From assembly GCA_035445085.1 (NCBI GenBank), contig DAOMQA010000003.1, positions 44,368 to 108,367 of the forward strand: DNA of 64,000 nucleotides, read 5' to 3'. The translations under genes and the position numbers were made by a program. This DNA comes from Candidatus Kapaibacterium sp. GTDB taxonomy: Bacteria > Bacteroidota > Ignavibacteria > Kapaibacteriales > UBA2268. Positions 996-10,587 of the stretch are shown in pieces. The stretch's first letter is position 1; every line of letters starts with the position of its first letter. Below the pieces are notes generated by a model that worked only from the letters and a program-made list of their open reading frames with translations, was not told where the DNA came from and did not search any database.

Positions 996-1184
996 ATGTT
1001 TAAACATTTATATAGCAATTTAGAACATTTTGCAATATTTCCAATATTAGCAATGCTAATATTTATGGCTGTATTTATTGGTGTTGTAATCTTTGCTTAC
1101 AAAATGAAAAAATCAACGGTAGATTATATTAGTAATCTACCGCTTGAAGATGATGAGAGTAAATCAAAAAATGGAGAAAATTAA
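996..1184 (+). CDS. ccoQ: cbb3 oxidase subunit CcoQ
   Basis: 62 aa, one TM helix, ends LPLEDDE; lies between ccoNO and ccoP. Confidence 0.85.
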   Translation: MFKHLYSNLEHFAIFPILAMLIFMAVFIGVVIFAYKMKKSTVDYISNLPLEDDESKSKNGEN

Positions 1185-1187
1185 AAT

Positions 1188-1757
1188 ATGTCAAAAGTTG
1201 AAGACAAACTATTAGATCATAATTATGATGGCATTCACGAATATGACAATCCACTACCAAGTTGGTGGACATCTATGTTCATTATCTTGATTGTATGGAG
1301 TGTTGGGTATATTTTTTATTACCATGTTGCTGGAATAGGCGGCGATCAGATAGATGAATATTTAGCTGAATACCAATCTTCTGGTAATGATGCTAATGCA
1401 AAAGTAGATGCTTTAAAGAAAATATGGGATAATGTACAATATGTAGCTGTTAGCGACCCTAAGGCTATATCTGCTGGCGAGAAAACTTACAAGGCTAACT
1501 GTGCTTCTTGCCATGGACCGGTATGCGAAGGAGGTATTGGTCCAAATTTAACAGATAAAAATTGGTTACATGGGGGAGACATAGAACACGTAATGAAAAC
1601 TATTATTAACGGGGTGCCAGAAAAAGGTATGATTTCGTGGAAACCTTTGCTGTCTCCTGAACAAATTCAAGAAGTTGCTAGTTTTATATTAACTTTACAA
1701 GGTTCAAACCCACCAAACGCAAAAGCTCCGCAAGGAGATGTTTGGGAAGGTAAATAA
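1188..1757 (+). CDS. ccoP: cbb3 oxidase subunit III, short monoheme CcoP
   Basis: DHNYDGIHEYDNPLPSWW N-terminal motif, one CASCH, GGIGPNLTD, GM..W. Confidence 0.93.
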   Translation: MSKVEDKLLDHNYDGIHEYDNPLPSWWTSMFIILIVWSVGYIFYYHVAGIGGDQIDEYLAEYQSSGNDANAKVDALKKIWDNVQYVAVSDPKAISAGEKTYKANCASCHGPVCEGGIGPNLTDKNWLHGGDIEHVMKTIINGVPEKGMISWKPLLSPEQIQEVASFILTLQGSNPPNAKAPQGDVWEGK

Positions 1758-1765
1758 TTGATATT

Positions 1766-3235
1766 ATGGAAAAGCCATTTAAGGAGTTAAATACTCTTAA
1801 TGATTCCAATCCCAATAAAAAGAAAGCGAAATTAATTACCGATACTGGTCTTGATTTTAGGGATAGGGTTAGCCATTATGATAACAAAGGCAAGCGTGTT
1901 TGGGTTTATCCCAAAAAGCCTGCAGGTAAATATCATAGATGGAGGGTGATTGTTGCCGTTATTCTTCTTGCAATAATGTTTGGATTGCCTTTCATTAAGA
2001 TAAATAACAATCCTTTTGTACTACTTGATGTATTACAAAGAAAATTTATAATCTTTGGGGCTGTATTCTGGCCACAAGATTTTCATATTCTTGCTCTTAG
2101 CTTTTTAGCTTTAGTGATTTTTGTGGTGTTGTTTACTACTATTTATGGTAGAATATGGTGTGGGTGGGCATGCCCGCAAACGATATTTATGGAAATGGTA
2201 TTCCGTAAAATTGAATATTGGATTGAAGGAGATTATCATCAGCAAAAGGAATTAAATAATTCTCCCATGAACGGTAATAAATTTATTAAAAAGTTTGCCA
2301 AACATAGTATATTCTTATTTATTTCATTCTTAATCAGTAATTTGGTACTGTCTTATATCATCGGCGTTGATAATGTCTTGCTGATGATGACCGATGGTCC
2401 ACTTGCTCATATAGGAGTGTTTGTAGCGGTTGTAGGGAATACGGGAGTATTTTATTTCGTTTATTCTTGGTTTAGAGAGCAAGCTTGTGTTTATGTTTGC
2501 CCTTACGGAAGGTTACAATCTGTGTTAATTGATAAAAATACATTGGTTGTTGCTTACGATTACAAAAGAGGCGAGCCAAGAGAGAAATTTAAGAAAAATC
2601 AAGAGCAAAATGCTGGAGATTGCGTTGATTGTGCTGCTTGTGTGAAGGTATGCCCAACAGGTATAGATATTCGTAATGGCACACAATTGGAATGCGTAAA
2701 TTGCACTGCATGCATGGATGCTTGTGATGAAGTCATGTTAAAAGTGAATAGACCAACAGGATTGATTAGGTATGCTTCTATTACGAATATAGAGGAAGGT
2801 ACAAAGTATACTTTTGGTGCAAGAACGACTTTATATACTATTGCCCTGGTTATATTATTAGGCGTAATTAGTTATTTGATGACAACTCGCAGCCAAGTAG
2901 AAGCTAATATATTAAAAGCAAAGGGTTCTACTTTTCAATATACCGAAAACAACCATATTGCTAATATTTATACTGTTACTTGTATTAACAAATCATTTGA
3001 CCCGATAAACCTTGAATTCAAGCTGATAGATTTAAAGGGTAAGATAACGGTTATTGGTAACAAAAAATTAGAATTGTCGCCTAATGGTATACTTGATGCT
3101 ACTATTATGATAGAATTAAATAGGAGTGATATTACGGGTACAAGAAATGAAATACATATTGGATTATATAGTAATAATAAATTGATACAAAATATCTCTA
3201 CTGGTTTTACAGGACCAGCACCGGGAATGCAATAA
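1766..3235 (+). CDS. ccoG: cbb3 oxidase accessory 4Fe-4S protein CcoG/FixG
   Basis: GRIWCGWACPQT, CVYVCPYGRLQ, CVDCAACVKVCPTGIDIR, CVNCTACMDAC. Confidence 0.95.
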   Translation: MEKPFKELNTLNDSNPNKKKAKLITDTGLDFRDRVSHYDNKGKRVWVYPKKPAGKYHRWRVIVAVILLAIMFGLPFIKINNNPFVLLDVLQRKFIIFGAVFWPQDFHILALSFLALVIFVVLFTTIYGRIWCGWACPQTIFMEMVFRKIEYWIEGDYHQQKELNNSPMNGNKFIKKFAKHSIFLFISFLISNLVLSYIIGVDNVLLMMTDGPLAHIGVFVAVVGNTGVFYFVYSWFREQACVYVCPYGRLQSVLIDKNTLVVAYDYKRGEPREKFKKNQEQNAGDCVDCAACVKVCPTGIDIRNGTQLECVNCTACMDACDEVMLKVNRPTGLIRYASITNIEEGTKYTFGARTTLYTIALVILLGVISYLMTTRSQVEANILKAKGSTFQYTENNHIANIYTVTCINKSFDPINLEFKLIDLKGKITVIGNKKLELSPNGILDATIMIELNRSDITGTRNEIHIGLYSNNKLIQNISTGFTGPAPGMQ

Positions 3236-3236
3236 T

Positions 3237-3686
3237 ATGAAAATTTATGGTAACTGGGGGCTATTAGTCCCCACTTTCTTCTTTACTTTTGTTGTTTTAT
3301 TTGGCTCGCTTGTTATATGGACAAGCACTCAATCATTTGAATTAGTCGATGATAAATATTACGAAAAAGAAAAAGATTTTAATAAGCAAATTGAAAAAAT
3401 GGAAAGGTCTAATCGTTTGAGCGAGCAATTGGCTTTTTTTTATTCTGATAATCAGTTAAATATAAAATTTCCTAAAATAGCAAACTATAATATGATGAAA
3501 GGCGAAGTGTATTTTTTCCGCCCATCTGAAAAGAATCTTGATTTTAAGGCGAGCTTTAATGTTGATAGTGGCTATACAGCAGCATTTGCAAGCGAAAGAC
3601 TCAAAGAAGGTTTGTGGAAATTAAAAGTTAATTGGTCTGCAGGCGACTCAACTTATTATTCAGAAAGCTCTTTTATAGCGGACTAA
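3237..3686 (+). CDS. ccoH: FixH/CcoH family protein
   Basis: N-terminal TM helix, LVDDKYYEKEKDFNKQI, YFFRPS, GLWKLKVNW; follows ccoG. Confidence 0.85.
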   Translation: MKIYGNWGLLVPTFFFTFVVLFGSLVIWTSTQSFELVDDKYYEKEKDFNKQIEKMERSNRLSEQLAFFYSDNQLNIKFPKIANYNMMKGEVYFFRPSEKNLDFKASFNVDSGYTAAFASERLKEGLWKLKVNWSAGDSTYYSESSFIAD

Positions 3687-3690
3687 TATA

Positions 3691-4404
3691 ATGGATTTTT
3701 TTATTTGGACTGGCTTTACCTTAGGAATCTTTGGTAGTTTGCATTGTTTGGGTATGTGTGGACCATTGGTATTAGCTATACCAATTATAAGTAAAACAAA
3801 GTTTGGAATTGCACTCGATGGCATAATTTATAATTTGGGGCGTACACTTACTTATACATTTATGGGCTTTTTATTAGGAGTGTTGGGTGTTTCAGTAAAA
3901 TTTGCTGGCATACAAGATTATGTTTCTATTACCTTAGGTGTTTTATTATTGCTTTCCTTGGTTGTGCCACGTAAGTATTATAAATCATTGGATAGTAAAA
4001 AAAGTATCAATAAAATTGTCATTAATATTAAAAAGCAATTCAAATCATTAATAGAAACGAGAAGCAGATTTTCTTTGCTTTTTATTGGTGTCTTAAATGG
4101 ATTTTTGCCTTGTGGACTGGTGTACGCTGCCTTAGCTGGCTCATTAGCTATGAATGACCTAGCGAGTAGCTCTTTATATATGTTTGCCTTTGGGTTAGGT
4201 ACTATACCAATGCTTGCTACTGTATATTTTACTAAAAACCTATTTACTCCTAAGTTGCGTGCTAATCTAAATAAGCTTATTCCATATACGATAGCAGTAG
4301 TTGCCGTGATATTAATCCTTAGAGGATTAAACTTAGGTATACCTTATATTAGTCCCACGCCTCAAAGTCTTGAGATAACAAATAGCGGTGCTTGTTGCCA
4401 CTAA
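3691..4404 (+). CDS. DsbD_2 / TauE-SafE-like membrane protein of the cbb3 maturation cluster
   Basis: GSLHCLGMCGPLV, YNLGR, GFLPCGLVY motifs; C-terminal CCH. Confidence 0.88.
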   Translation: MDFFIWTGFTLGIFGSLHCLGMCGPLVLAIPIISKTKFGIALDGIIYNLGRTLTYTFMGFLLGVLGVSVKFAGIQDYVSITLGVLLLLSLVVPRKYYKSLDSKKSINKIVINIKKQFKSLIETRSRFSLLFIGVLNGFLPCGLVYAALAGSLAMNDLASSSLYMFAFGLGTIPMLATVYFTKNLFTPKLRANLNKLIPYTIAVVAVILILRGLNLGIPYISPTPQSLEITNSGACCH

Positions 4405-4532
4405 CGGTTTGCGGCTTTGCGCTCGGACGGGCAATCGAAGCACTAAAGTTGAATTTAGTACAACCGCTGAATATAGCACAAATGTTGAATTTTGTACTTC
4501 TCCCCAGCTCTTGCAAAACCGCTTGTTATGCC
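4397..4532 (-). repeat. attC-like site (136 bp) after the DUF262 cassette
   Basis: Minus strand GGCATAAC...GTTAGTGGC; imperfect hairpin arms gcggctttgcg/tgcaaaaccgc and gaagcac/gtacttc. Confidence 0.8.
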
Positions 4533-4546
4533 TTCGCCCTTCTTTT

Positions 4547-6615
4547 CTAGTCAGTATATTTGATTGATAATTCGTCTTCAAATCCAAAAATTGTCAAGGC
4601 TTGTTTTATTCTGTCAAACTTGCCCATATTGTCAAGATTTGCTTCTATAAAATATGTATCACTTATCGGAACTGCTTGTCTTAGTCCACTTGTTTCAGGT
4701 GTTTTAGTCAAACTTAATCTGTCGCCAATTTCTGATGTAAAAAAAGTTTCTGGTTGTAAGTCGAATAGTTGCTTAAATACTTCAATGTAAAGTTTTGCTA
4801 CTTGTGTAACTTCAAGTTTTTGATTGAAGAAAATCGCATATTCTAATTTTTTGTGTTTGGGGTCTTCTGCATCAAAAATACTTATTTCGTCATTAGTCGC
4901 TTCAAGCTCAATATTTATTTCTGGAATTCCCCAAATTTTTATAAAGCGTTCTGAAATTGTGTTTGCTCTCATTTCAATTTCAGACTTATTCCACTTCGTT
5001 TTTTCTTTTAAATCTCTATTTAGCCAAAGTCTGCTGAAAATGTATCCTTGTTCTTTACCGTCCACGTTCATTACTTTCTTGTCAAGAAATGGCTTGTTAC
5101 TTAATTTGCCGTTGTTGCCTGAAAGAGTAAGATTTCCGATTGTGTTTAGATAGTTTTCTTTTATCAAATTGTATTCGTCTGCACCTAATTCAATTTTCCA
5201 TTTTGGGTCAGGGTTTTGCGGAAAAATATGTTCAATAGTTATATTGGAATTTCCTTCAATTGCTACTGGTTCATTGTTTTGAAAGTTTTCAAGTCGTTCT
5301 AATAAGTAAGTTCGGTTTTTAGGTTTAATGTTGTAAACATCTTTTTCTTTTAGTGCGTTTATCGTTTCTGTGTTTCTTGGGAAACGTTGAACACCAGACC
5401 TTTGAAGTAAAGATTTTTGAATTGAAAACAAATAATTGTTTGGCTCAACTTTATCATATAAGCCCATAAATATTTTATTAAGTGCATTGGTAGGCAAGCC
5501 TAAAATAAAACGTCTGAATATGAATGATTGAACTGTCGATAAAACTGAAATAAAAGTTGCTTTATCAATTATGTTATTTGAAAAATCTTCATAAACTTTC
5601 ATTAAGAATGGAAACGCAACATTTATTTCTAACCTGTTGATGTATTCAAGTTGAGTTCGTATTAGCTTATCAGGTTCATTTTTTGGGTTAGTCAGTTTGT
5701 TGTAATACTTAACTAATGATTGTAATTCTGCTAGGACAAGCTCTAATTCGTTAATAGTTGAAGTCGGATATTTTTCTTTGAATTTTGTATAAACGTCTCC
5801 TTTATTTGGAATTTCTTTGTTTTTAAGTGTCAAATAATCCCGGATAAACTCAGAAACACGAGTTTTATTTAATGTCTCATCCTTAGCATTTTTCTCGATT
5901 ACTTCCCAATAGTTTTTGTAAATTTTGTCTTGATTGATTCTTGAAAGTCCCATCAAAATATAATTTCTAATAAGATCAGCTTGTGATAATTCAAGTCCTG
6001 TCGAATTCAAACTTTCAAAAATTCTTTGTGGATTGTCTCTTTGTCTATCAAGAGCAATATCAACAAAAATTAGCTTTGAAAGTCCACGCTGAACAACTTC
6101 AAAGTTCTCCGCATTAATTGCTGACCTGAAATAAACAAAATTCTCAATAATTTTTGAGTAGCCTCTAAATTCTTCTCCGTCTGTTGAATTTAGAATGTGT
6201 CGAAGTGCTTCTTTATTATTTTCTGTTGGTTTTAACTTTAACTTTTCTTCTCCGGGTGCAAATTCATTTATCAAATAAGTTTTCTGAATTCGGTTGGCCA
6301 CATTTGGTTGTCAAGTTCCTTCGCAAGGCGGTAAAGTGCAATGTAAATTAAGGTAATTGTTGTAAGCCTTTGCTGTCCATCAATGATGGTTAATTCAGTC
6401 AAACCCGAAGCCGTGTAAACGTCATCGTGAACATAAACTATACTTCCAATAAAGTGAGCATTTGTCTTGTCGTTCTTTCCCGTTTCAATTATGTCGTGAA
6501 GTAATTGTTTACATTGAAACAATGTCCAATCGTAATTTCTCTGATAAACAGGAATGGCAAATGTCGTTTCATTTGTTGCTAAAAATTTATCTACTTTGGT
6601 TTCGTTCGCTTTCAT
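4547..6615 (-). pseudogene. GmrSD-like DUF262 + DUF1524 (HNH) putative type IV restriction protein, split by a 1-bp frameshift near 6300
   Basis: ORF 6615-6271 has IPVYQRNYDW and IIDGQQRLTT. ORF 6301-4547 has FESLNSTGLELSQADLIRN, TIEHIFPQ and IGNLTLSGNNGKLSN. Adding one T (ATG TTG GCC) joins them into about 689 aa. Confidence 0.85.
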
Positions 6616-6648
6616 ATTTTATTTCTGCCTGTCAGTTTGTTTACGGTT

Positions 6649-6898
6649 GCCACTAGCTTACAAATATACGAACATTCGTATATAAATACTAATACAACAA
6701 TTAATATTATTTCTAATATACGAAAAAAATTAGTATTTTCCGATAACTAATAATTCCTTTCTAATTTAATTATAAAACAACTTTCTATTTAGGTACGCTT
6801 TCAATGGCTGAAAGTTGCGACTTGCGAGGGTGGGTGGTGGAGTACAAAAGTTTAATTTAGCACTTCAGCCCCCATTTTGCCAAACCCTTGTTAGTGGC
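6649..6898 (-). repeat. Composite att site, copy 1 (250 bp): attC-like arm + AT-rich palindromic module
   Basis: Direct repeat of 7511-7758; minus-strand ends GCCACTAAC ... GCTAGTGGC. Confidence 0.85.
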
Positions 6899-7490
6899 TG
6901 CCTTTCTTTGCATCTGTAAGTTTCAAATATTCGTTTCCTCGTCTCTCTATCAAGTTTTCTAAACTTTCAAAATAGTTCAGTCCTGCAAGTCCTGTCCCGT
7001 ATGGTGCAACTGTTATTTCACTAATCAAATATCCATTGTCTAATAGGAGAAGTCCTTTATCGGTATCGTCTGCATACCAAATAAAGTCAACTATTTTTCT
7101 GTTCTTAATATGTTTTAGTTTGTTTTCCCTGTAGTCAACTTTATATGGTTGATAATCCTTGATTACGATGTCTTGTCCAAATAAAAATTTACGAAGTCTG
7201 TTAAATATATTCTGTCTTTGTCGTTGGTAACTATCGGCAATTTCTCCGACTGTTTTGTTGTTCTTGTTGACGTAATAAATGGGATAGTCCGATAAGTCAG
7301 CGAAAAGGCTTACAGCTTCTTTGTTTAACTCCTTTAACCAAATGTCGTCATTATGACAAAGTGGAATGTCAATAATATATTTGTTGTCAAGTTCTATAAA
7401 ACACTCACAAGTGTCTAAGCCGCCAACCTCCATTTTTAACAATGAATAAATGTTTGTAACAGTTTTACCTATAATTTCTCCTGTCTGCAT
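6891..7490 (-). CDS. Hypothetical cassette protein (199 aa)
   Basis: ATG 29 bp after the GTTAGTGGC core; stop codon lies inside the GCCACTAAC box; no motif recognised. Confidence 0.8.
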   Translation of the reverse strand: MQTGEIIGKTVTNIYSLLKMEVGGLDTCECFIELDNKYIIDIPLCHNDDIWLKELNKEAVSLFADLSDYPIYYVNKNNKTVGEIADSYQRQRQNIFNRLRKFLFGQDIVIKDYQPYKVDYRENKLKHIKNRKIVDFIWYADDTDKGLLLLDNGYLISEITVAPYGTGLAGLNYFESLENLIERRGNEYLKLTDAKKGSH

Positions 7491-7510
7491 CTCGGGTGTT
7501 GGTTAAGGTT

Positions 7511-7758
7511 GCCACTAACTTATAAATATACGAACATTCGTATATAAATACTAATTCAACAATTAATATTATTTCTAATATACGAAAAAAATTAATATTT
7601 TCCGATAACTAATAATCCCTTCCTAATTTAATTATAAAACAACTTTCTATTTAGGTACGCTTTCAATGGCTGAAAGTACTACTTGCAGGTGGGTGGGGGG
7701 AGTACAAAAGTTCAATTTAGCACTTCAGCCCCCATTTTGCCAAACCCTTGTTGTGTGC
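7511..7758 (-). repeat. Composite att site, copy 2 (248 bp)
   Basis: Direct repeat of 6649-6898; minus-strand ends GCACACAAC ... GTTAGTGGC. Confidence 0.85.
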
Positions 7759-7767
7759 AGTGCTTTT

Positions 7768-8622
7768 TTAGCCATATTTTTCTGCTGGTTCAAATAATGT
7801 CAATTGTTGTTGTTCTGGTAATGCTTCAAGATAGTTTGAAATAAAAAGCTCTTTCCCTTTTTGGTCTGCACTTGCTGTTACATTTCGCATTCCATACATC
7901 AATTCCCAAGGTATAATATTTGCAAATGAAAACAACTCTCTAATGTATTCGCTGTCGTCATAAGTAATGAGCCATTTATGCTTGCAGGTCTTCATATTGT
8001 CGGCAAACTTAACGTGGTCAAATGATTTGTGCATATTGCCATTCTTTCCATATAGTGCCGATTTTGTTGCTGAATAATAAGGTGGGTCAAGAAAAATAAA
8101 AACATTTTCTCCGTCCTTTTTCAATAATTCTTCATAATCAAGGTTTGTGATAGTTGAACCATTTATAACTTTTGCAAATTGGTTAAGTCGTTGAATACTA
8201 CTTTCTGTAAAGCGTCCTATAAAAGCACCTTCACTAAAACCACCACTCAAACTTGTTCCTGAAAATGTTATTCGGTTATATATAAAAAATGCTGCACCTC
8301 TTTCTAAATCGTTGAATGAAGCCAAATTTTCATTTAGAAATTTATGTAATTCTTTCCCTACTGGAAATTGGTTACGCCATTCATAAATTTTGTCAATAAG
8401 AGCATCTACATCTTTTTGGGCCATCTCCCAAAACTTGTAGAGTTCAAAATAAAGGTCGTTAATCCAAAAAGTTTTATTTGGAAAGCGTTGTTTTGCATAA
8501 ATGAAAATTGAACCACCGCCTAAAAATGGTTCTCTAAATTCGTCAAATTCAGGAATAATTGTAGATATTAAATCTACCGACCTGCTTTTTCCACCTGGGT
8601 ATCTTAACGGACTTTTTATCAT
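7768..8622 (-). CDS. Dam/D12-class N6-adenine DNA methyltransferase
   Basis: KSPLRYPGGKS, EPFLGGGS (SAM binding), FLDPPY (catalytic). Confidence 0.93.
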   Translation of the reverse strand: MIKSPLRYPGGKSRSVDLISTIIPEFDEFREPFLGGGSIFIYAKQRFPNKTFWINDLYFELYKFWEMAQKDVDALIDKIYEWRNQFPVGKELHKFLNENLASFNDLERGAAFFIYNRITFSGTSLSGGFSEGAFIGRFTESSIQRLNQFAKVINGSTITNLDYEELLKKDGENVFIFLDPPYYSATKSALYGKNGNMHKSFDHVKFADNMKTCKHKWLITYDDSEYIRELFSFANIIPWELMYGMRNVTASADQKGKELFISNYLEALPEQQQLTLFEPAEKYG

Positions 8623-9710
8623 TTTGAATATTGTATTTGAATGATAAAATTATTTTGTTTAGCTTCAGCAAAAATGGTTTCTACTAATTTGATTTGTTGT
8701 GTTGAAAAACTATTTTCGGTAAAAAAGTTTGCAATATCTTTTTTTGTACTTGTAGAAGTTATTGCACCTTTTAATTTTGAAGAGGTTAAGTTTAGCACTG
8801 CTTCACTTTTTATTTTATTTCCATTAGCAGTAACTTCCGAAAGGTTGCAATACAAAATCAATTTCAAAAGCCCGTCTTTTATGTCGCCTTTGCTTGGCAG
8901 TAAAGCATTTTTACTGTGCTTTCCTTCTATTAAATTTACTTTGTTTGGTGTGATTTTTATTTCATCAACTGTCAAAAAATATTGCCCACCTAAATAATTG
9001 GTAATTGTAACTTTTGCTTTTGAAAGTGTAGATAAACTTTCTTTTGGTTGTTGTGTAACAAACTCTCTTGATTGTGCTTTTTGTGCTTTCTCTCTTGAAA
9101 AAGCCATAAAAAATGAAACATCTTTGCCAATTTTTTCTTTGAAGTTGTCTAACCCACTTGGATTGTGTAGTTTAACTTTTGTAGTTAATTCAATGTTGCC
9201 ATAAGAGGTTTTGACTTTATCAATAATCTTATGCAGATTTGTATTTAATTCATTCAAATTCCAATGTAAAGCCGAACTATGATATTGTTCTATTTCCTTT
9301 ATTTTGGATAATATGTATTTATTGTTAAACTCTTGATTGGTTATTTTTTCGTCCGCATTTTCTGCTTTGTCGTAATATGCAAAAATTACAAAAACATCTA
9401 ATAAAGACATTAATGAAACAGTATCCCATTGTATAAAATCTCTATCGCCTTTTGCTCCTTCGTCTTTTACAACTGGAATAACAGTAATTTTCTTTGAAAT
9501 GTGTAGAGTATTATACACTCTTTCAAAAGGATAAGAACGTGTTCTTTTTGGCGAAACCCATTTGGAAATTGCAAATGTATGTTTGTTGCTTGTTAGCAAA
9601 CAAGCCGAAGGCATTTCGTTAATATCAAAGTTTTTGATTTTAACTTCTTTCAAGTCCTCTGTGAAAAGTACTTGATATTTTATGCCTGTTATTTTGCCAA
9701 CTATGTCCAT
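8619..9710 (-). CDS. Putative type II restriction endonuclease, partner of the MTase
   Basis: ATGA overlap with the MTase; PD-(D/E)xK-like TVDEI...LIEGKH; specificity unknown. Confidence 0.65.
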   Translation of the reverse strand: MDIVGKITGIKYQVLFTEDLKEVKIKNFDINEMPSACLLTSNKHTFAISKWVSPKRTRSYPFERVYNTLHISKKITVIPVVKDEGAKGDRDFIQWDTVSLMSLLDVFVIFAYYDKAENADEKITNQEFNNKYILSKIKEIEQYHSSALHWNLNELNTNLHKIIDKVKTSYGNIELTTKVKLHNPSGLDNFKEKIGKDVSFFMAFSREKAQKAQSREFVTQQPKESLSTLSKAKVTITNYLGGQYFLTVDEIKITPNKVNLIEGKHSKNALLPSKGDIKDGLLKLILYCNLSEVTANGNKIKSEAVLNLTSSKLKGAITSTSTKKDIANFFTENSFSTQQIKLVETIFAEAKQNNFIIQIQYSK

Positions 9711-9784
9711 TCGATACGAAATATTAAATTTTGGTCAAAGCTACAAATTTATAGTTTGATTTTTTGCAGGTGTCTTTTAAGCTT

Positions 9785-9882
9785 GCACACAACGAGCCGC
9801 GTATTGCCGAAGGCGGGATTTTTAGCACTGAACTTGATACGAAGTCGTTCAGCCCGCCTATTGCCAATACGATGTTGTGTGC
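9785..9882 (-). repeat. attC-like site (98 bp)
   Basis: Perfect 9-bp terminal inverted repeat gcacacaac/gttgtgtgc; inner arms gtattgccgaaggcggg / cccgcctattgccaatac with mismatched or extrahelical bases. Confidence 0.88.
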
Positions 9883-9898
9883 TGTGCTTTCTATGTTG

Positions 9899-10465
9899 TT
9901 AGTTTGTTTCAATTTGTTTCCGTTCTTCGTCTGTCAGTTCGTAAAGGTCGTAAATTATTTGGTTTATCTTATCTTCTGTAAATGAAATTCTGTTTTCTAA
10001 TTGCTCTTTTTTGTCTGCCAAAGTTACGGTTTGAAGTTCGCCAATTAGTTTTAGAAGTAAGGAAGTTTGCTTTTTAACTTCGTTGTATTGGTCTTGTTGA
10101 TTTTGACCGATTTCGGGTATTGGCAATTTCTCCAAATAACTTCCTTTAATTTTTGGAAAGGTCTGGCGTAAATCCGAGAAATTTTCAGTCCAGTAATTGG
10201 CAATAAATTTTGAGTTTAAGACTGCTAAAAGAAATTTGATGTCAATGCTTGCTTCTGTTTTTGGTACAATCATGAAAACGGTATTCAAACAAGCATAGCC
10301 GTTTTCATTGTCAATATCCCAACCGAGAGCTTTCCAAAACGGGTCGATAAAATCCCGTCTTGTTTGCGTTTCATTATAGTCTGATTTTTTGTAAAATTCT
10401 TTTTGTTCGTCAAACCGCTGAACCAACAATTTTATTTTTTTAAGTGCTTCGTCTTTTGTTTGCAT
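9899..10465 (-). pseudogene. Internally deleted type IIG (Eco57I/TaqI-like) restriction-modification gene; N-terminus fused in frame to the C-terminal specificity region
   Basis: NETQTRRDFIDPFWKALGWDIDNENGYA is followed directly by CLNTVFMI...FLLAVLNSK...FPKIKGSYLEKLPIP...INQIIYDLYELTDEE; no nuclease or MTase catalytic motifs remain. Confidence 0.8.
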
Positions 10466-10587
10466 CCACTTTTCCAATTTAGAGCCGTAAATGTTTTATT
10501 ATCGCTTATTAGTACTTCCATTAATTCGATATAGAAGGCTAAATCTTAAAATAATTATAAGAAAAGTTAATAAACAATAATTACTTA

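What the first reader, a model, noticed from the sequence alone, without database searches (positions are those of the whole stretch)
6657..6724. Perfect palindrome and 52-bp-spaced direct repeat next to the crossover core
Seen: ATATACGAA-CA-TTCGTATAT (6664-6683; again 7526-7545) starts 7 bp from the core. AATATACGAA recurs at 6663-6672 and 6715-6724, about five helical turns apart. On the minus strand the palindrome overlaps TATATTTG, a TAnnTTTG -7 element; copy 2 reads TATATTTA. Copy 1 thus has the intact -7 box and a mutated core, and copy 2 has the reverse. Known: attI1 has accessory direct-repeat integrase sites, and tyrosine recombinases bind inverted repeats. Inference: a recombinase or repressor site coupling recombination with cassette transcription. 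No correctly spaced -33 box was found, so promoter function is uncertain.
Basis: partly seen in the sequence, partly recalled or inferred. Interest (0 to 1): 0.66.

Follow-up and report, generated by a model that had tools for sequence, protein, structure and literature searches.

The report
Integrase docking site beside cassette junction
The palindrome and its extra half-copy are real. They match the conserved entry site (attI) of a little-described integron-like gene-capture system in Bacteroidota-group bacteria, and here that site occurs twice inside an array of phage-defence gene cassettes that has no integrase nearby.

Summary
ATATACGAA-CA-TTCGTATAT lies at 6664-6683 and 7526-7545, with a third half-site 52 nt away. 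Both copies sit in a ~250-nt unit repeated between minus-strand cassettes: type IV, type II R-M and type IIG defence genes and an unknown 199-aa gene.

Read in the cassette direction, the same 20-mer recurs in 31 other non-identical sites from Ignavibacteriota, Chlorobiota and Bacteroidota. Each is followed 5-7 nt later by GTT and then a different gene.

In complete elements (L112, L058, L163) it lies between a divergent ~280-aa XerA/IntI-like recombinase gene and the first cassette. Strains with the same recombinase diverge exactly after GTT.

Ten recombinase lineages sampled without using the motif keep the architecture: direct repeat, near-palindrome, 6-7 nt, G|TT. The repeat sequence changes together in all copies.

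Best reading: an attI-type recombination module. The right arm is the L arm of the core. The left arm and extra half-site are accessory recombinase sites, like DR1/DR2 of attI1.

In the window the module is fused behind an attC lacking its own crossover G, so it serves as the cassette's 3' site.

The -7 promoter idea and a LexA box are not supported. The binding protein is inferred, not shown.

The parts
6664..6683 (-). Palindrome copy 1. On the minus strand it reads ATATACGAA-TG-TTCGTATAT. The right arm is the proposed L arm of the core site and the left arm an accessory site.
   Evidence: The same 20-mer lies next to GTT in 31 further non-identical sites.
7526..7545 (-). Palindrome copy 2.
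6716..6724 (-). Third half-site of copy 1. It reads TTCGTATAT on the minus strand and lies 32 nt upstream of the palindrome.
   Evidence: Among the 42 asymmetric-spacer sites a third half-site lies upstream in 23 and downstream in 4.
7578..7586 (-). Third half-site of copy 2.
6649..6663 (-). Copy 1: 6-nt spacer TTGTAA (6663-6658) and core GCTAGTGGC (6657-6649). The proposed crossover lies after the first G.
7511..7525 (-). Copy 2: 6-nt spacer TTATAA (7525-7520) and core GTTAGTGGC (7519-7511). This is the 5' boundary of the 199-aa cassette and the perfect complement of that cassette's R'' at 6898-6890.
6814..6898 (-). attC-like part of long site 1: R'' GCCACTAAC, L'' AAGGGTTTGGCAAAATGGGGG, L' CCCACCCTCGCAAGTCGCAAC. 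It is followed by TTT where canonical sites have GTT, so the crossover G is missing.
   Evidence: by comparison with canonical attCs of L171-L173. The blastn match of its 5' part to these attCs is.
7676..7758 (-). attC-like part of long site 2. R'' is GCACACAAC (7758-7750), the perfect complement of the 5' core of the R-M cassette (9793-9785).
6684..6813 (-). AT-rich segment between the attC part and the palindrome in copy 1 (7546-7675 in copy 2). It holds the third half-site and the inverted repeat AAATACTAAT/ATTAGTATTT. No ORF. Its function is unknown; it may carry a promoter.
   Evidence: It is not significantly similar to recombinase-attI spacers outside the motif.
6891..7490 (-). Cassette gene of 199 aa. 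No family hit.
4547..6615 (-). GmrSD-like type IV restriction gene, split by a frameshift. It lies downstream of palindrome copy 1.
7768..9710 (-). One cassette with a type II restriction enzyme (8619-9710) and a Dam-like methyltransferase (7768-8622).
   Evidence: The cassette is absent from a contig of run X2, joint 7759->9884.
9785..9882 (-). Canonical attC, 98 nt. R'' GCACACAAC and R' GTTGTGTGC. No palindrome motif.
4397..4532 (-). Terminal canonical attC, 136 nt. Its R' GTTAGTGGC overlaps the stop codon of dsbD_2 (+ strand, ends 4404).

Best explanation
The palindrome, its third half-site and the adjacent G(T/C)T core form an attI-type, double-stranded recombination module. The module belongs to an integron-like system of the Bacteroidota/Ignavibacteria/Kapaibacteria group. 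That system is run by a short (~280 aa) XerA/IntI-like tyrosine recombinase.

Proposed mechanism:
- The right arm TTCGTATAT is the L arm of the core site.
- A 6-7 nt central region separates it from the crossover G|TT.
- The R arm (TTAGTGGCAAC...) belongs to the downstream cassette.
- The left arm and the extra half-site are accessory binding sites for the same recombinase. They would help assemble the synapse, as DR1/DR2 do in attI1.

In the window two such modules lie inside a recombinase-less array of defence-gene cassettes. Each is fused behind an attC whose own crossover G is missing. The composite ~250-nt unit therefore acts as the 3' recombination site of the upstream cassette and the 5' boundary of the next.

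Shown: conservation, position, directionality, breakpoints at GTT in relatives, linkage to the recombinase, and concerted change of the repeats.

Inferred: that the recombinase is the binding protein, and that the window copies are active in trans.
For: 1. The exact 20-mer with an asymmetric spacer occurs in 42 non-identical sites. Of these, 31 have GTT 5-7 nt downstream (about 5% expected). Among the 42, a third half-site lies upstream in 23 and downstream in 4.
2. The downstream genes are unrelated to each other.
3. In L058, L012 and L112 the motif lies about 100 nt upstream of a divergent recombinase gene. L112 is a complete small element with two cassettes and canonical attCs. The R'' of each attC complements the 5' core of its own cassette.
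4. Pairs or triplets with the same recombinase but different first cassettes are identical up to GTT and diverge after it: L112/L058, L164/L165, L168/L169 and L171/L172/L173.
5. Ten recombinase lineages (50-98% identity) were fetched through the protein, not the motif. Nine have a direct repeat plus an inverted copy 6-7 nt from G|TT; in L166/L167 the inverted arm has decayed. The repeat sequence changes together in all copies: ATATACGAA, ATAAACGAC, ATTAACGCA, ATAACCGCA, TTTACGAAC.
6. In the window the 5' core and R'' co-vary per cassette. GTTAGTGGC pairs with GCCACTAAC for the 199-aa cassette. GTTGTGTGC pairs with GCACACAAC for the R-M cassette.
7. Cassettes ending in attI-derived sites are known and functional in class 1 and 2 integrons (PMC12901181).
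Against: - No recombinase of this family is encoded in the 64-kb window.
- Binding has not been measured.
- The arm sequence does not resemble the R core, unlike DR1/DR2 of attI1.
- Two inverted arms only 2 nt apart cannot both be occupied in the usual core geometry.
- The third half-site of the window is inverted and further away than in the recombinase-linked sites.
- Outside the motif the AT-rich segment is not significantly similar to recombinase-attI spacers.
- Change of the motif with recombinase lineage is confounded with host lineage.
- The genome and metagenome hits were collected with the exact arms, so only the ten protein-derived lineages measure conservation without bias.
Confidence: 0.6

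Rival explanations
1. The palindrome is the operator of a dimeric transcription factor, either a host protein or one encoded by the element. This factor would repress or activate a cassette-directed promoter in the AT-rich module, and in complete elements the recombinase promoter too. The TATATTTG overlap would then be part of the promoter.
For: - A perfect 9-2-9 dyad is typical of operators.
- In L112 a good sigma-70-like promoter (TTATCA-16-TATAAT, 3991-4018) lies just upstream. That places the direct repeat near +1 and the palindrome at about +25 to +45.
- The spacer begins TTG in 7 of 10 recombinase-linked lineages, giving TAnnTTTG.
- attI1 is known to carry regulator sites (PMC8876359).
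- The same dyad acts as an apparent operator between -35 and -10 in Alphaproteobacteria.
Against: - The known Bacteroidetes LexA-like motifs differ.
- TAnnTTTG is absent from most sites with the exact palindrome, and no -33 box is present.
- The motif is hardly enriched upstream of the host's genes.
- The distance to G|TT is fixed while the distance to start codons varies from 8 to 77 nt.
- The motif is identical in Ignavibacteriota and some Bacteroidales but differs among other Bacteroidota. It follows the element rather than the host phylum.
- The RNA contig reads through copy 2.
Confidence: 0.2
2. The palindrome matters as a hairpin in single-stranded DNA. It would be a minimal L''/L' stem of a folded, attC-like bottom strand stacked on the R''/R' stem, and would not be a sequence-specific double-strand site. 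Alternatively it could act as an RNA hairpin in the 5' UTR.
For: - L048 5111-5157 is a 46-bp perfect palindrome with R''-spacer-L'' mirrored by L'-spacer-R'.
- The predicted DNA fold of the window unit pairs R'' with R' and forms the palindrome hairpin next to it.
- Both arms change together in other lineages (ACGAA/TTCGT to ACGCA/TGCGT).
- R''/R' complementarity is 9 of 9 for two window cassettes.
Against: - The unpaired direct repeat changes in concert with the arms, which a hairpin does not explain.
- In recombinase-linked attI sites there is no R'' partner upstream.
- The whole-unit fold is not better than shuffles (z = -1.37).
- In L176 the arms are 12 nt apart, and in L166 the right arm has decayed while two direct copies persist.
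Confidence: 0.12
3. The feature has no function of its own. It would be a passenger sequence duplicated with the 250-nt unit, and the half-site repeat would be a chance match in AT-rich DNA.
For: - The two window copies are one duplication.
- By my own estimate, about 0.2 direct 10-mer repeats are expected by chance within one 275-nt AT-rich element.
Against: - The 20-mer is conserved across three phyla while its flanks diverge.
- It keeps a fixed orientation and distance to GTT.
- It recurs in lineages sampled through the protein.
Confidence: 0.03

Closest known systems
attI1 of class 1 integrons (L and R boxes plus direct repeats DR1 and DR2, all bound by IntI1)
   Same: - It lies between a divergent integrase gene and the first cassette.
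- It ends in GTTRRRY with crossover after the G.
- It has two direct repeats upstream of an inverted L box and the R box.
- It is a double-stranded partner for folded attC sites (PMC12901181; PMC8876359; relatives).
   Different: - Here the second direct repeat abuts the L arm, which makes a 20-bp near-perfect palindrome.
- The repeat sequence is unlike the R core.
- The recombinase lacks the IntI-specific insertion.
- The module occurs several times inside arrays and without a neighbouring integrase.
- Binding is untested.
[quoted passage not shown]
   Same: An attI-derived site lies downstream of a cassette ORF inside the array and serves as its 3' recombination site. Such cassettes are excised and inserted by IntI1 (PMC12901181).
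   Different: In the window the attC is retained apart from its crossover G, and the attI-type part keeps the full palindrome and half-site. A similar composite occurs in L151, where the internal R' reads GAT. The system and the host phylum are different.
Canonical integron integrases (IntI, TIGR02249) and their attC sites
   Same: - Same domain order (SAM-like domain plus catalytic domain).
- Best structural-sequence relatives include VchIntIA.
- Cassettes with RYYYAAC...GTTRRRY sites.
- Strain-variable arrays.
- A group II intron-type reverse transcriptase in one array.
   Different: - The recombinase aligns to VchIntIA residues 3-181 and 238-318 only.
- About 40 aa of the IntI-specific insertion are therefore absent.
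- It scores 209 bits against a cut-off of 265.
rAID-1 recombinase-associated immunity-gene arrays of Bacteroidales
   Same: A XerD-like tyrosine recombinase next to long arrays of small accessory genes, with repetitive intergenic sequences likened to integrons (bioRxiv 10.1101/471110).
   Different: [quoted passage not shown] Here the recombinase is divergent. The rAID motif is shown only in a figure, so identity of the motifs could not be checked.
loxP/Cre and Xer/dif core sites
   Same: An arm, a 6-8 bp central region and a second arm. The half-site TTCGTATA is identical to the inner 8 bp of the loxP arm.
   Different: The two arms of the palindrome face outwards and are 2 nt apart, so the palindrome itself cannot be a Cre-type core. 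The resemblance to loxP is probably coincidental.

Membership tests
Integron attI site | Lies between the integrase gene and the first cassette | tested here: not met
   There is no recombinase of this family in the 64-kb window (tblastn), and both copies lie inside the array. The feature is met in relatives L058, L012, L112, L163-L176.
Integron attI site | Ends in a GTTRRRY-type core where cassette sequence begins (crossover after the G) | tested here: met
   Copy 2 reads GTTAGTG and copy 1 GCTAGTG. The 5' core and R'' co-vary for two window cassettes. In four lineages, strains with the same recombinase diverge right after GTT.
Integron attI site | Integrase-binding L box and accessory direct repeats upstream of the core | tested here: inconclusive
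   The three-site architecture is present and conserved. Which protein binds it cannot be determined by sequence analysis.
Integron attI site | Recombines as double-stranded DNA with folded attC sites | not testable with these tools
   This needs recombination assays.
Integron attC site | R'' (RYYYAAC) complementary to the R' core of the same cassette | tested here: met
   9 of 9 for the 199-aa cassette (6898-6890 against 7519-7511) and 9 of 9 for the R-M cassette (7758-7750 against 9793-9785). Not met for the GmrSD cassette.
Integron attC site | Compact imperfect palindrome (about 57-141 nt) with L''/L' next to R''/R' | tested here: not met
   The unit is about 250 nt. L' is followed by TTT rather than GTT. 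About 130 nt of AT-rich DNA and the palindrome lie between L' and the working core. The fold is not better than shuffles.
Canonical integron integrase (IntI) system | Integrase with the IntI-specific additional domain, passing TIGR02249 | tested here: not met
   The linked recombinase scores 209 bits against a cut-off of 265. It lacks the region matching VchIntIA residues 182-237.
Bacteroidetes-type promoter (-33 TTTG / -7 TAnnTTTG) | TAnnTTTG with a -33 element at the proper spacing, conserved among homologous sites and used by the host | tested here: not met
   Only copy 1 has the -7 motif and there is no -33 box. The motif is present in 8 of about 34 exact-palindrome sites. About 6 of 26 upstream regions carry it against about 3 expected.
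LexA / SOS box | Match to the LexA motif of the clade | tested here: not met
   The Bacteroidetes LexA-like motifs are GGA-N5-TCC and CTAA-N5-TTAG (PMC8565304). The motif of Kapaibacteria/Ignavibacteria is unknown.
Delta-attI-type unusual gene cassette | Cassette whose 3' site is derived from an attI instead of an attC | tested here: inconclusive
   An attI-type motif lies at the 3' end of the 199-aa and R-M cassettes, but the attC part is retained. Homology of the rest of the segment to attI regions is not significant.

The most novel reading that the evidence does not exclude
Bacteroidota-group bacteria carry a widespread second kind of integron. It is run by a short recombinase without the IntI-specific domain. 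Its attI has a three-site architecture: a direct repeat, then a palindrome formed by the second repeat and the L arm. These attI modules are themselves mobile and recur inside cassette arrays. There they would provide internal high-efficiency insertion points, and perhaps promoters, for defence-gene cassettes, even at loci that have no integrase.
Probability: 0.4. Interest if true: 0.75.

Novelty: new variant of a known kind. Interest (0 to 1): 0.62.

Why it matters
Standard integron finders require the IntI-specific domain. Arrays of this family would therefore be reported at best as orphan attC clusters, and their entry sites would go unnoticed.

A short conserved signature (near-palindrome, 6-7 nt, GTT) gives a simple handle to find these platforms and their defence-gene cargo in Bacteroidota, Ignavibacteria and relatives.

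The architecture also offers a testable case of how a tyrosine recombinase without the IntI insertion handles both a double-stranded attI and folded attC sites. It further raises the question of whether attI modules inside arrays change where cassettes are inserted and expressed.

Tried and rejected
- **Rfam, whole window:** no family matched.
- **LexA/SOS box:** the known Bacteroidetes motifs differ.
- **Bacteroidetes -7/-33 promoter:** not conserved, and not evidently used by the host. The sigma-70 scans give only consensus matches at background frequency.
- **Crossover site of a serine recombinase at the central TG:** rejected, because strains sharing a recombinase stay identical through the palindrome and spacer and diverge only after GTT.
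- **loxP-like core:** the arms face the wrong way.
- **The whole ~250-nt unit as one long folded attC:** the fold is no better than shuffles, and L' is not next to the working core.
- **Homology of the whole AT-rich segment to recombinase-attI spacers:** the blastn hits did not survive a shuffle control.
- **Recombinase in the window:** none found.
- **Co-occurrence of the L112-type recombinase in the runs that hold the window:** not seen among the listed runs.
- **RNA evidence:** only low-depth metatranscriptome contigs, unsuitable for mapping a transcript start.
- **Literature:** full-text searches found no description of this attI or recombinase family.

Full report
**1. Observation**

- The sequence is as described. 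ATATACGAACATTCGTATAT lies at 6664-6683 and 7526-7545 and nowhere else in the window. With up to 3 mismatches, 0.02 matches are expected by chance.
- AATATACGAA recurs 52 nt away in each copy. That gives 4 matches against 0.44 expected.
- All six exact TTCGTATAT 9-mers of the window lie in these two places.
- The two occurrences are not independent. They belong to one unit of about 250 nt present twice, 6649-6898 and 7511-7758. Its two long ungapped blocks are 96% and 91% identical (gapped alignment).

**2. Local context**

All genes from 4547 to 10477 are on the minus strand. The region lies between dsbD_2 of a cbb3-oxidase cluster and a cytochrome c7 gene. In the direction of transcription the order is:

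| Coordinates | Feature |
|---|---|
| 9899-10477 | Type IIG restriction-methylase fragment |
| 9785-9882 | 98-nt attC-like site |
| 8619-9710 and 7768-8622 | Type II restriction enzyme and Dam-like methyltransferase |
| 7511-7758 | Long repeat copy 2 |
| 6891-7490 | 199-aa gene of unknown family |
| 6649-6898 | Long repeat copy 1 |
| 4547-6615 | Frameshifted GmrSD-like type IV restriction gene |
| 4397-4532 | 136-nt attC-like site whose end overlaps the dsbD_2 stop codon |

The sites begin with RYYYAAC-like boxes and end with GTTRRRY-like boxes. The boxes co-vary per cassette:

- The 199-aa cassette starts with GTTAGTGGC (7519-7511) and ends with its exact complement GCCACTAAC (6898-6890).
- The R-M cassette starts with GTTGTGTGC (9793-9785) and ends with GCACACAAC (7758-7750).

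The array varies between samples:

- A contig of run X2 joins 7759 to 9884 and so lacks the R-M cassette.
- In other samples the same dsbD_2 is followed by a different cassette (L006).

This is an integron-type cassette array of defence genes. No tyrosine recombinase of the relevant family is encoded in the 64 kb. The host is a relative of Kapaibacteria and Ignavibacteria: its citrate synthase is 78% and 73-75% identical to named relatives.

**3. The palindrome elsewhere**

The pattern ATATACGAA-NN-TTCGTATAT was scanned in one genome per species and in metagenomes. The scans gave several unrelated classes of hit and one coherent class.

- The coherent class has the non-palindromic spacer TG and comes from Ignavibacteriota, Chlorobiota and Bacteroidota assemblies.
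- There are 42 non-identical sites with an asymmetric spacer. Of these, 31 have GTT 5-7 nt after the right arm, where about 5% would be expected.
- Among the 42 sites, a third half-site lies within 70 nt upstream in 23 and downstream in 4.
- A gene starts 8-77 nt further on. These genes are unrelated to each other.

The element is therefore directional, tied to a GTT core and independent of the gene that follows.

**4. What it is in complete elements**

In L058, L012 and L112 the motif lies about 100 nt upstream of a divergently transcribed 279-aa tyrosine recombinase. L112 is a complete small element, in this order:

1. Recombinase gene, 3100-3939, minus strand.
2. Direct repeat ATATACGAAGGT.
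3. Palindrome, 4047-4066.
4. Spacer TTGGATA.
5. G|TTGTAAAAC.
6. Cassette 1, then an attC that begins GTTTTACAAC (the complement of cassette 1's 5' core) and ends GTTGTGCGTC.
7. Cassette 2, then an attC that ends GTTAGAAAT.
8. A housekeeping gene.

The canonical attCs of this element do not contain the palindrome. The palindrome is therefore an attI feature.

The recombinase has these properties:

- It passes NCBIfam NF040815, 'site-specific tyrosine recombinase/integron integrase' (225 bits, cut-off 220).
- It fails the integron-integrase model TIGR02249 (209 bits, cut-off 265).
- It aligns to VchIntIA residues 3-181 and 238-318 only, so it lacks most of the IntI-specific insertion.
- Its closest solved relative is archaeal XerA.

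**5. Sampling without the motif**

Homologues of the recombinase are numerous in Bacteroidota. Contigs were fetched for ten lineages, 50-98% identical to the reference, and the DNA upstream of the gene was read. It was then aligned on the GTT.

- Nine lineages have a direct repeat, then a second copy abutting an inverted copy, then 6-7 nt (mostly TTGGGT, TTGGATA or TTGGAA), then GTT. In L176 the second copy and the inverted copy are 12 nt apart.
- In the tenth (L166/L167) the inverted arm has decayed and two direct copies remain.
- The repeat sequence differs between lineages but changes together in all copies within a lineage.

| Locus | Repeat sequence |
|---|---|
| L112, L163 | ATATACGAA |
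| L174 | ATAAACGAA |
| L164 | ATA(T/A)ACGAC |
| L168 | ATTAACGCA |
| L170, L175 | ATAACCGC(C/A) |
| L171 | ATTGACGCA |
| L176 | TTTACGAAC |

- The inverted right arm, consensus CGTATAT, is the most constant part.
- Strains that share a recombinase but differ in the first cassette are identical up to GTT and diverge immediately after it. This holds for L112/L058, L164/L165, L168/L169 and L171/L172/L173.
- This places the crossover at the G|TT known for integrons (PMC8876359).

**6. Mechanism proposed**

- The right arm, a 6-7 nt central region and the GTT-initiated arm have the geometry of a tyrosine-recombinase core site, with the right arm as the L arm.
- The left arm and the upstream repeat are in the position of accessory sites.
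- Concerted change of an unpaired direct repeat together with both arms argues for recognition by a protein rather than for a hairpin alone.
- Linkage to the recombinase gene makes that protein the first candidate.
- This step is inference. It is weakened because host lineage and recombinase lineage are confounded, and because the arms do not resemble the R core.

**7. Why the module sits inside the window's array**

The first 85 nt of each long unit match canonical attCs of the family. An example is the Chryseobacterium arrays: R''-AAGGGTTTGGCAATAG...GCCCCACCATCGCAAAGCCCCAAAAC|GTTACC.

In the window the matching L' (CCCACCCTCGCAAGTCGCAAC) is followed by TTT, so the crossover G is missing. Next come about 130 nt of AT-rich DNA, the palindrome, the spacer and a working core.

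For IntI1, mutations of the G reduce recombination about 300-fold, whereas the second position tolerates change (PMC2811028). Two consequences follow:

- The internal junction is probably dead and the composite behaves as one site.
- The GCT core of copy 1 need not be inactive.

A parallel composite occurs in L151, L046 and L059. There an attC whose R' reads GAT is followed by a shorter AT-rich stretch and the palindrome.

Cassettes that end in attI-derived sites are documented and active in class 1 and 2 integrons.

Outside the motif the window's AT-rich segment is not significantly similar to recombinase-attI spacers. Only the motif architecture supports the attI assignment, not homology of the whole segment.

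**8. Rival readings**

*An operator or promoter role remains possible.*
- L112 has a good sigma-70-like promoter just upstream of the repeats.
- The spacer starts TTG in 7 of 10 lineages.
- Against it: the TAnnTTTG box is missing from most sites with the exact palindrome, and no -33 box exists.
- The host shows little use of the motif.
- The known LexA-like motifs of Bacteroidetes differ.
- A low-depth metatranscriptome contig runs through copy 2 (7380-7554).

*A single-strand hairpin role has some support but leaves a gap.*
- It is suggested by the 46-bp perfect palindrome in L048 and by the fold.
- It does not explain the direct repeat.

*A neutral passenger is excluded by the conservation.*

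**9. Novelty**

Integrons were already known in Chlorobi, Ignavibacteriae and Bacteroidetes at census level (PMC9024848). Recombinase-associated arrays are described in Bacteroidales.

Full-text searches found no description of this attI architecture, of its link to a short recombinase lacking the IntI insertion, or of repeated attI-type modules inside such arrays.

I rate the finding as a new variant of a known kind. The recombinase-site reading is well supported by comparison, and the identity of the binding protein is open.

Noticed in passing
window 4547-6615: The GmrSD-like type IV restriction gene is split into two overlapping ORFs (6271-6615 and 4547-6301). It is probably a frameshifted pseudogene. 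The same split is called in a Logan contig from another data set (L002).
   Followed up: partly
window 7759-9884; L006 885-2873: The array differs between samples. A contig of run X2 lacks the R-M cassette (joint 7759->9884 inside the repeated GTGTGC box). In other samples dsbD_2 is followed by a different methylase cassette.
   Followed up: partly
L048 5111-5157: A 46-bp perfect palindrome, GCTAAC-TATATTG-ATATACGAA-TG-TTCGTATAT-CAATATA-GTTAGC, lies between two co-oriented genes. It consists of two back-to-back L-spacer-R half sites. It could fold into a minimal attC-like hairpin or act as a two-sided attI.
   Followed up: no
L151 (reverse strand) 1085-4125; L046; L059: Arrays in Chlorobiota-labelled assemblies also carry several palindrome modules, one of them decayed. 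At least one module follows an attC whose R' reads GAT instead of GTT, as in the window's composite.
   Followed up: partly
L112 3930-3950 and the start codons of the recombinase genes in L163-L176: A motif-like string (TTACGAATG, CGAATGTT-ATG or TATACG-ATG) overlaps or abuts the recombinase start codon in about 8 of 10 lineages. It could be a fourth site, which would allow autoregulation.
   Followed up: no
L009, L026, L055, L069, L136; L008, L013, L016, L024, L047, L052: The same dyad with other spacers occurs in unrelated settings. In Alphaproteobacteria it lies between -35-like and -10-like boxes, which looks like an operator. In Patescibacteria it lies inside long symmetric arrays of TACGAA repeats.
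   Followed up: no
L163 1506-3077: A group II intron-type reverse transcriptase (RVT_1) lies on the cassette side of the recombinase gene. Such introns are known to be associated with attC sites in canonical integrons.
   Followed up: no
window 6854-6883 and 7714-7743 (minus strand): A sigma-70-like TTGGCA-18-TAAATT match, with TG before the -10 hexamer, lies inside the attC part of both long units. It is only a consensus match.
   Followed up: no
window 4394-4405: The last codons and stop of dsbD_2 (GTTGCCACTAAC) are the complement of the extended cassette core GTTAGTGGCAAC. In samples with a different neighbouring cassette (L003, L006) this stretch reads GTTGCCATTAAT.
   Followed up: partly
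window 6684-6745: A 10-nt inverted repeat, AAATACTAAT/ATTAGTATTT, brackets the third half-site and abuts the palindrome. Its significance is unknown.
   Followed up: no
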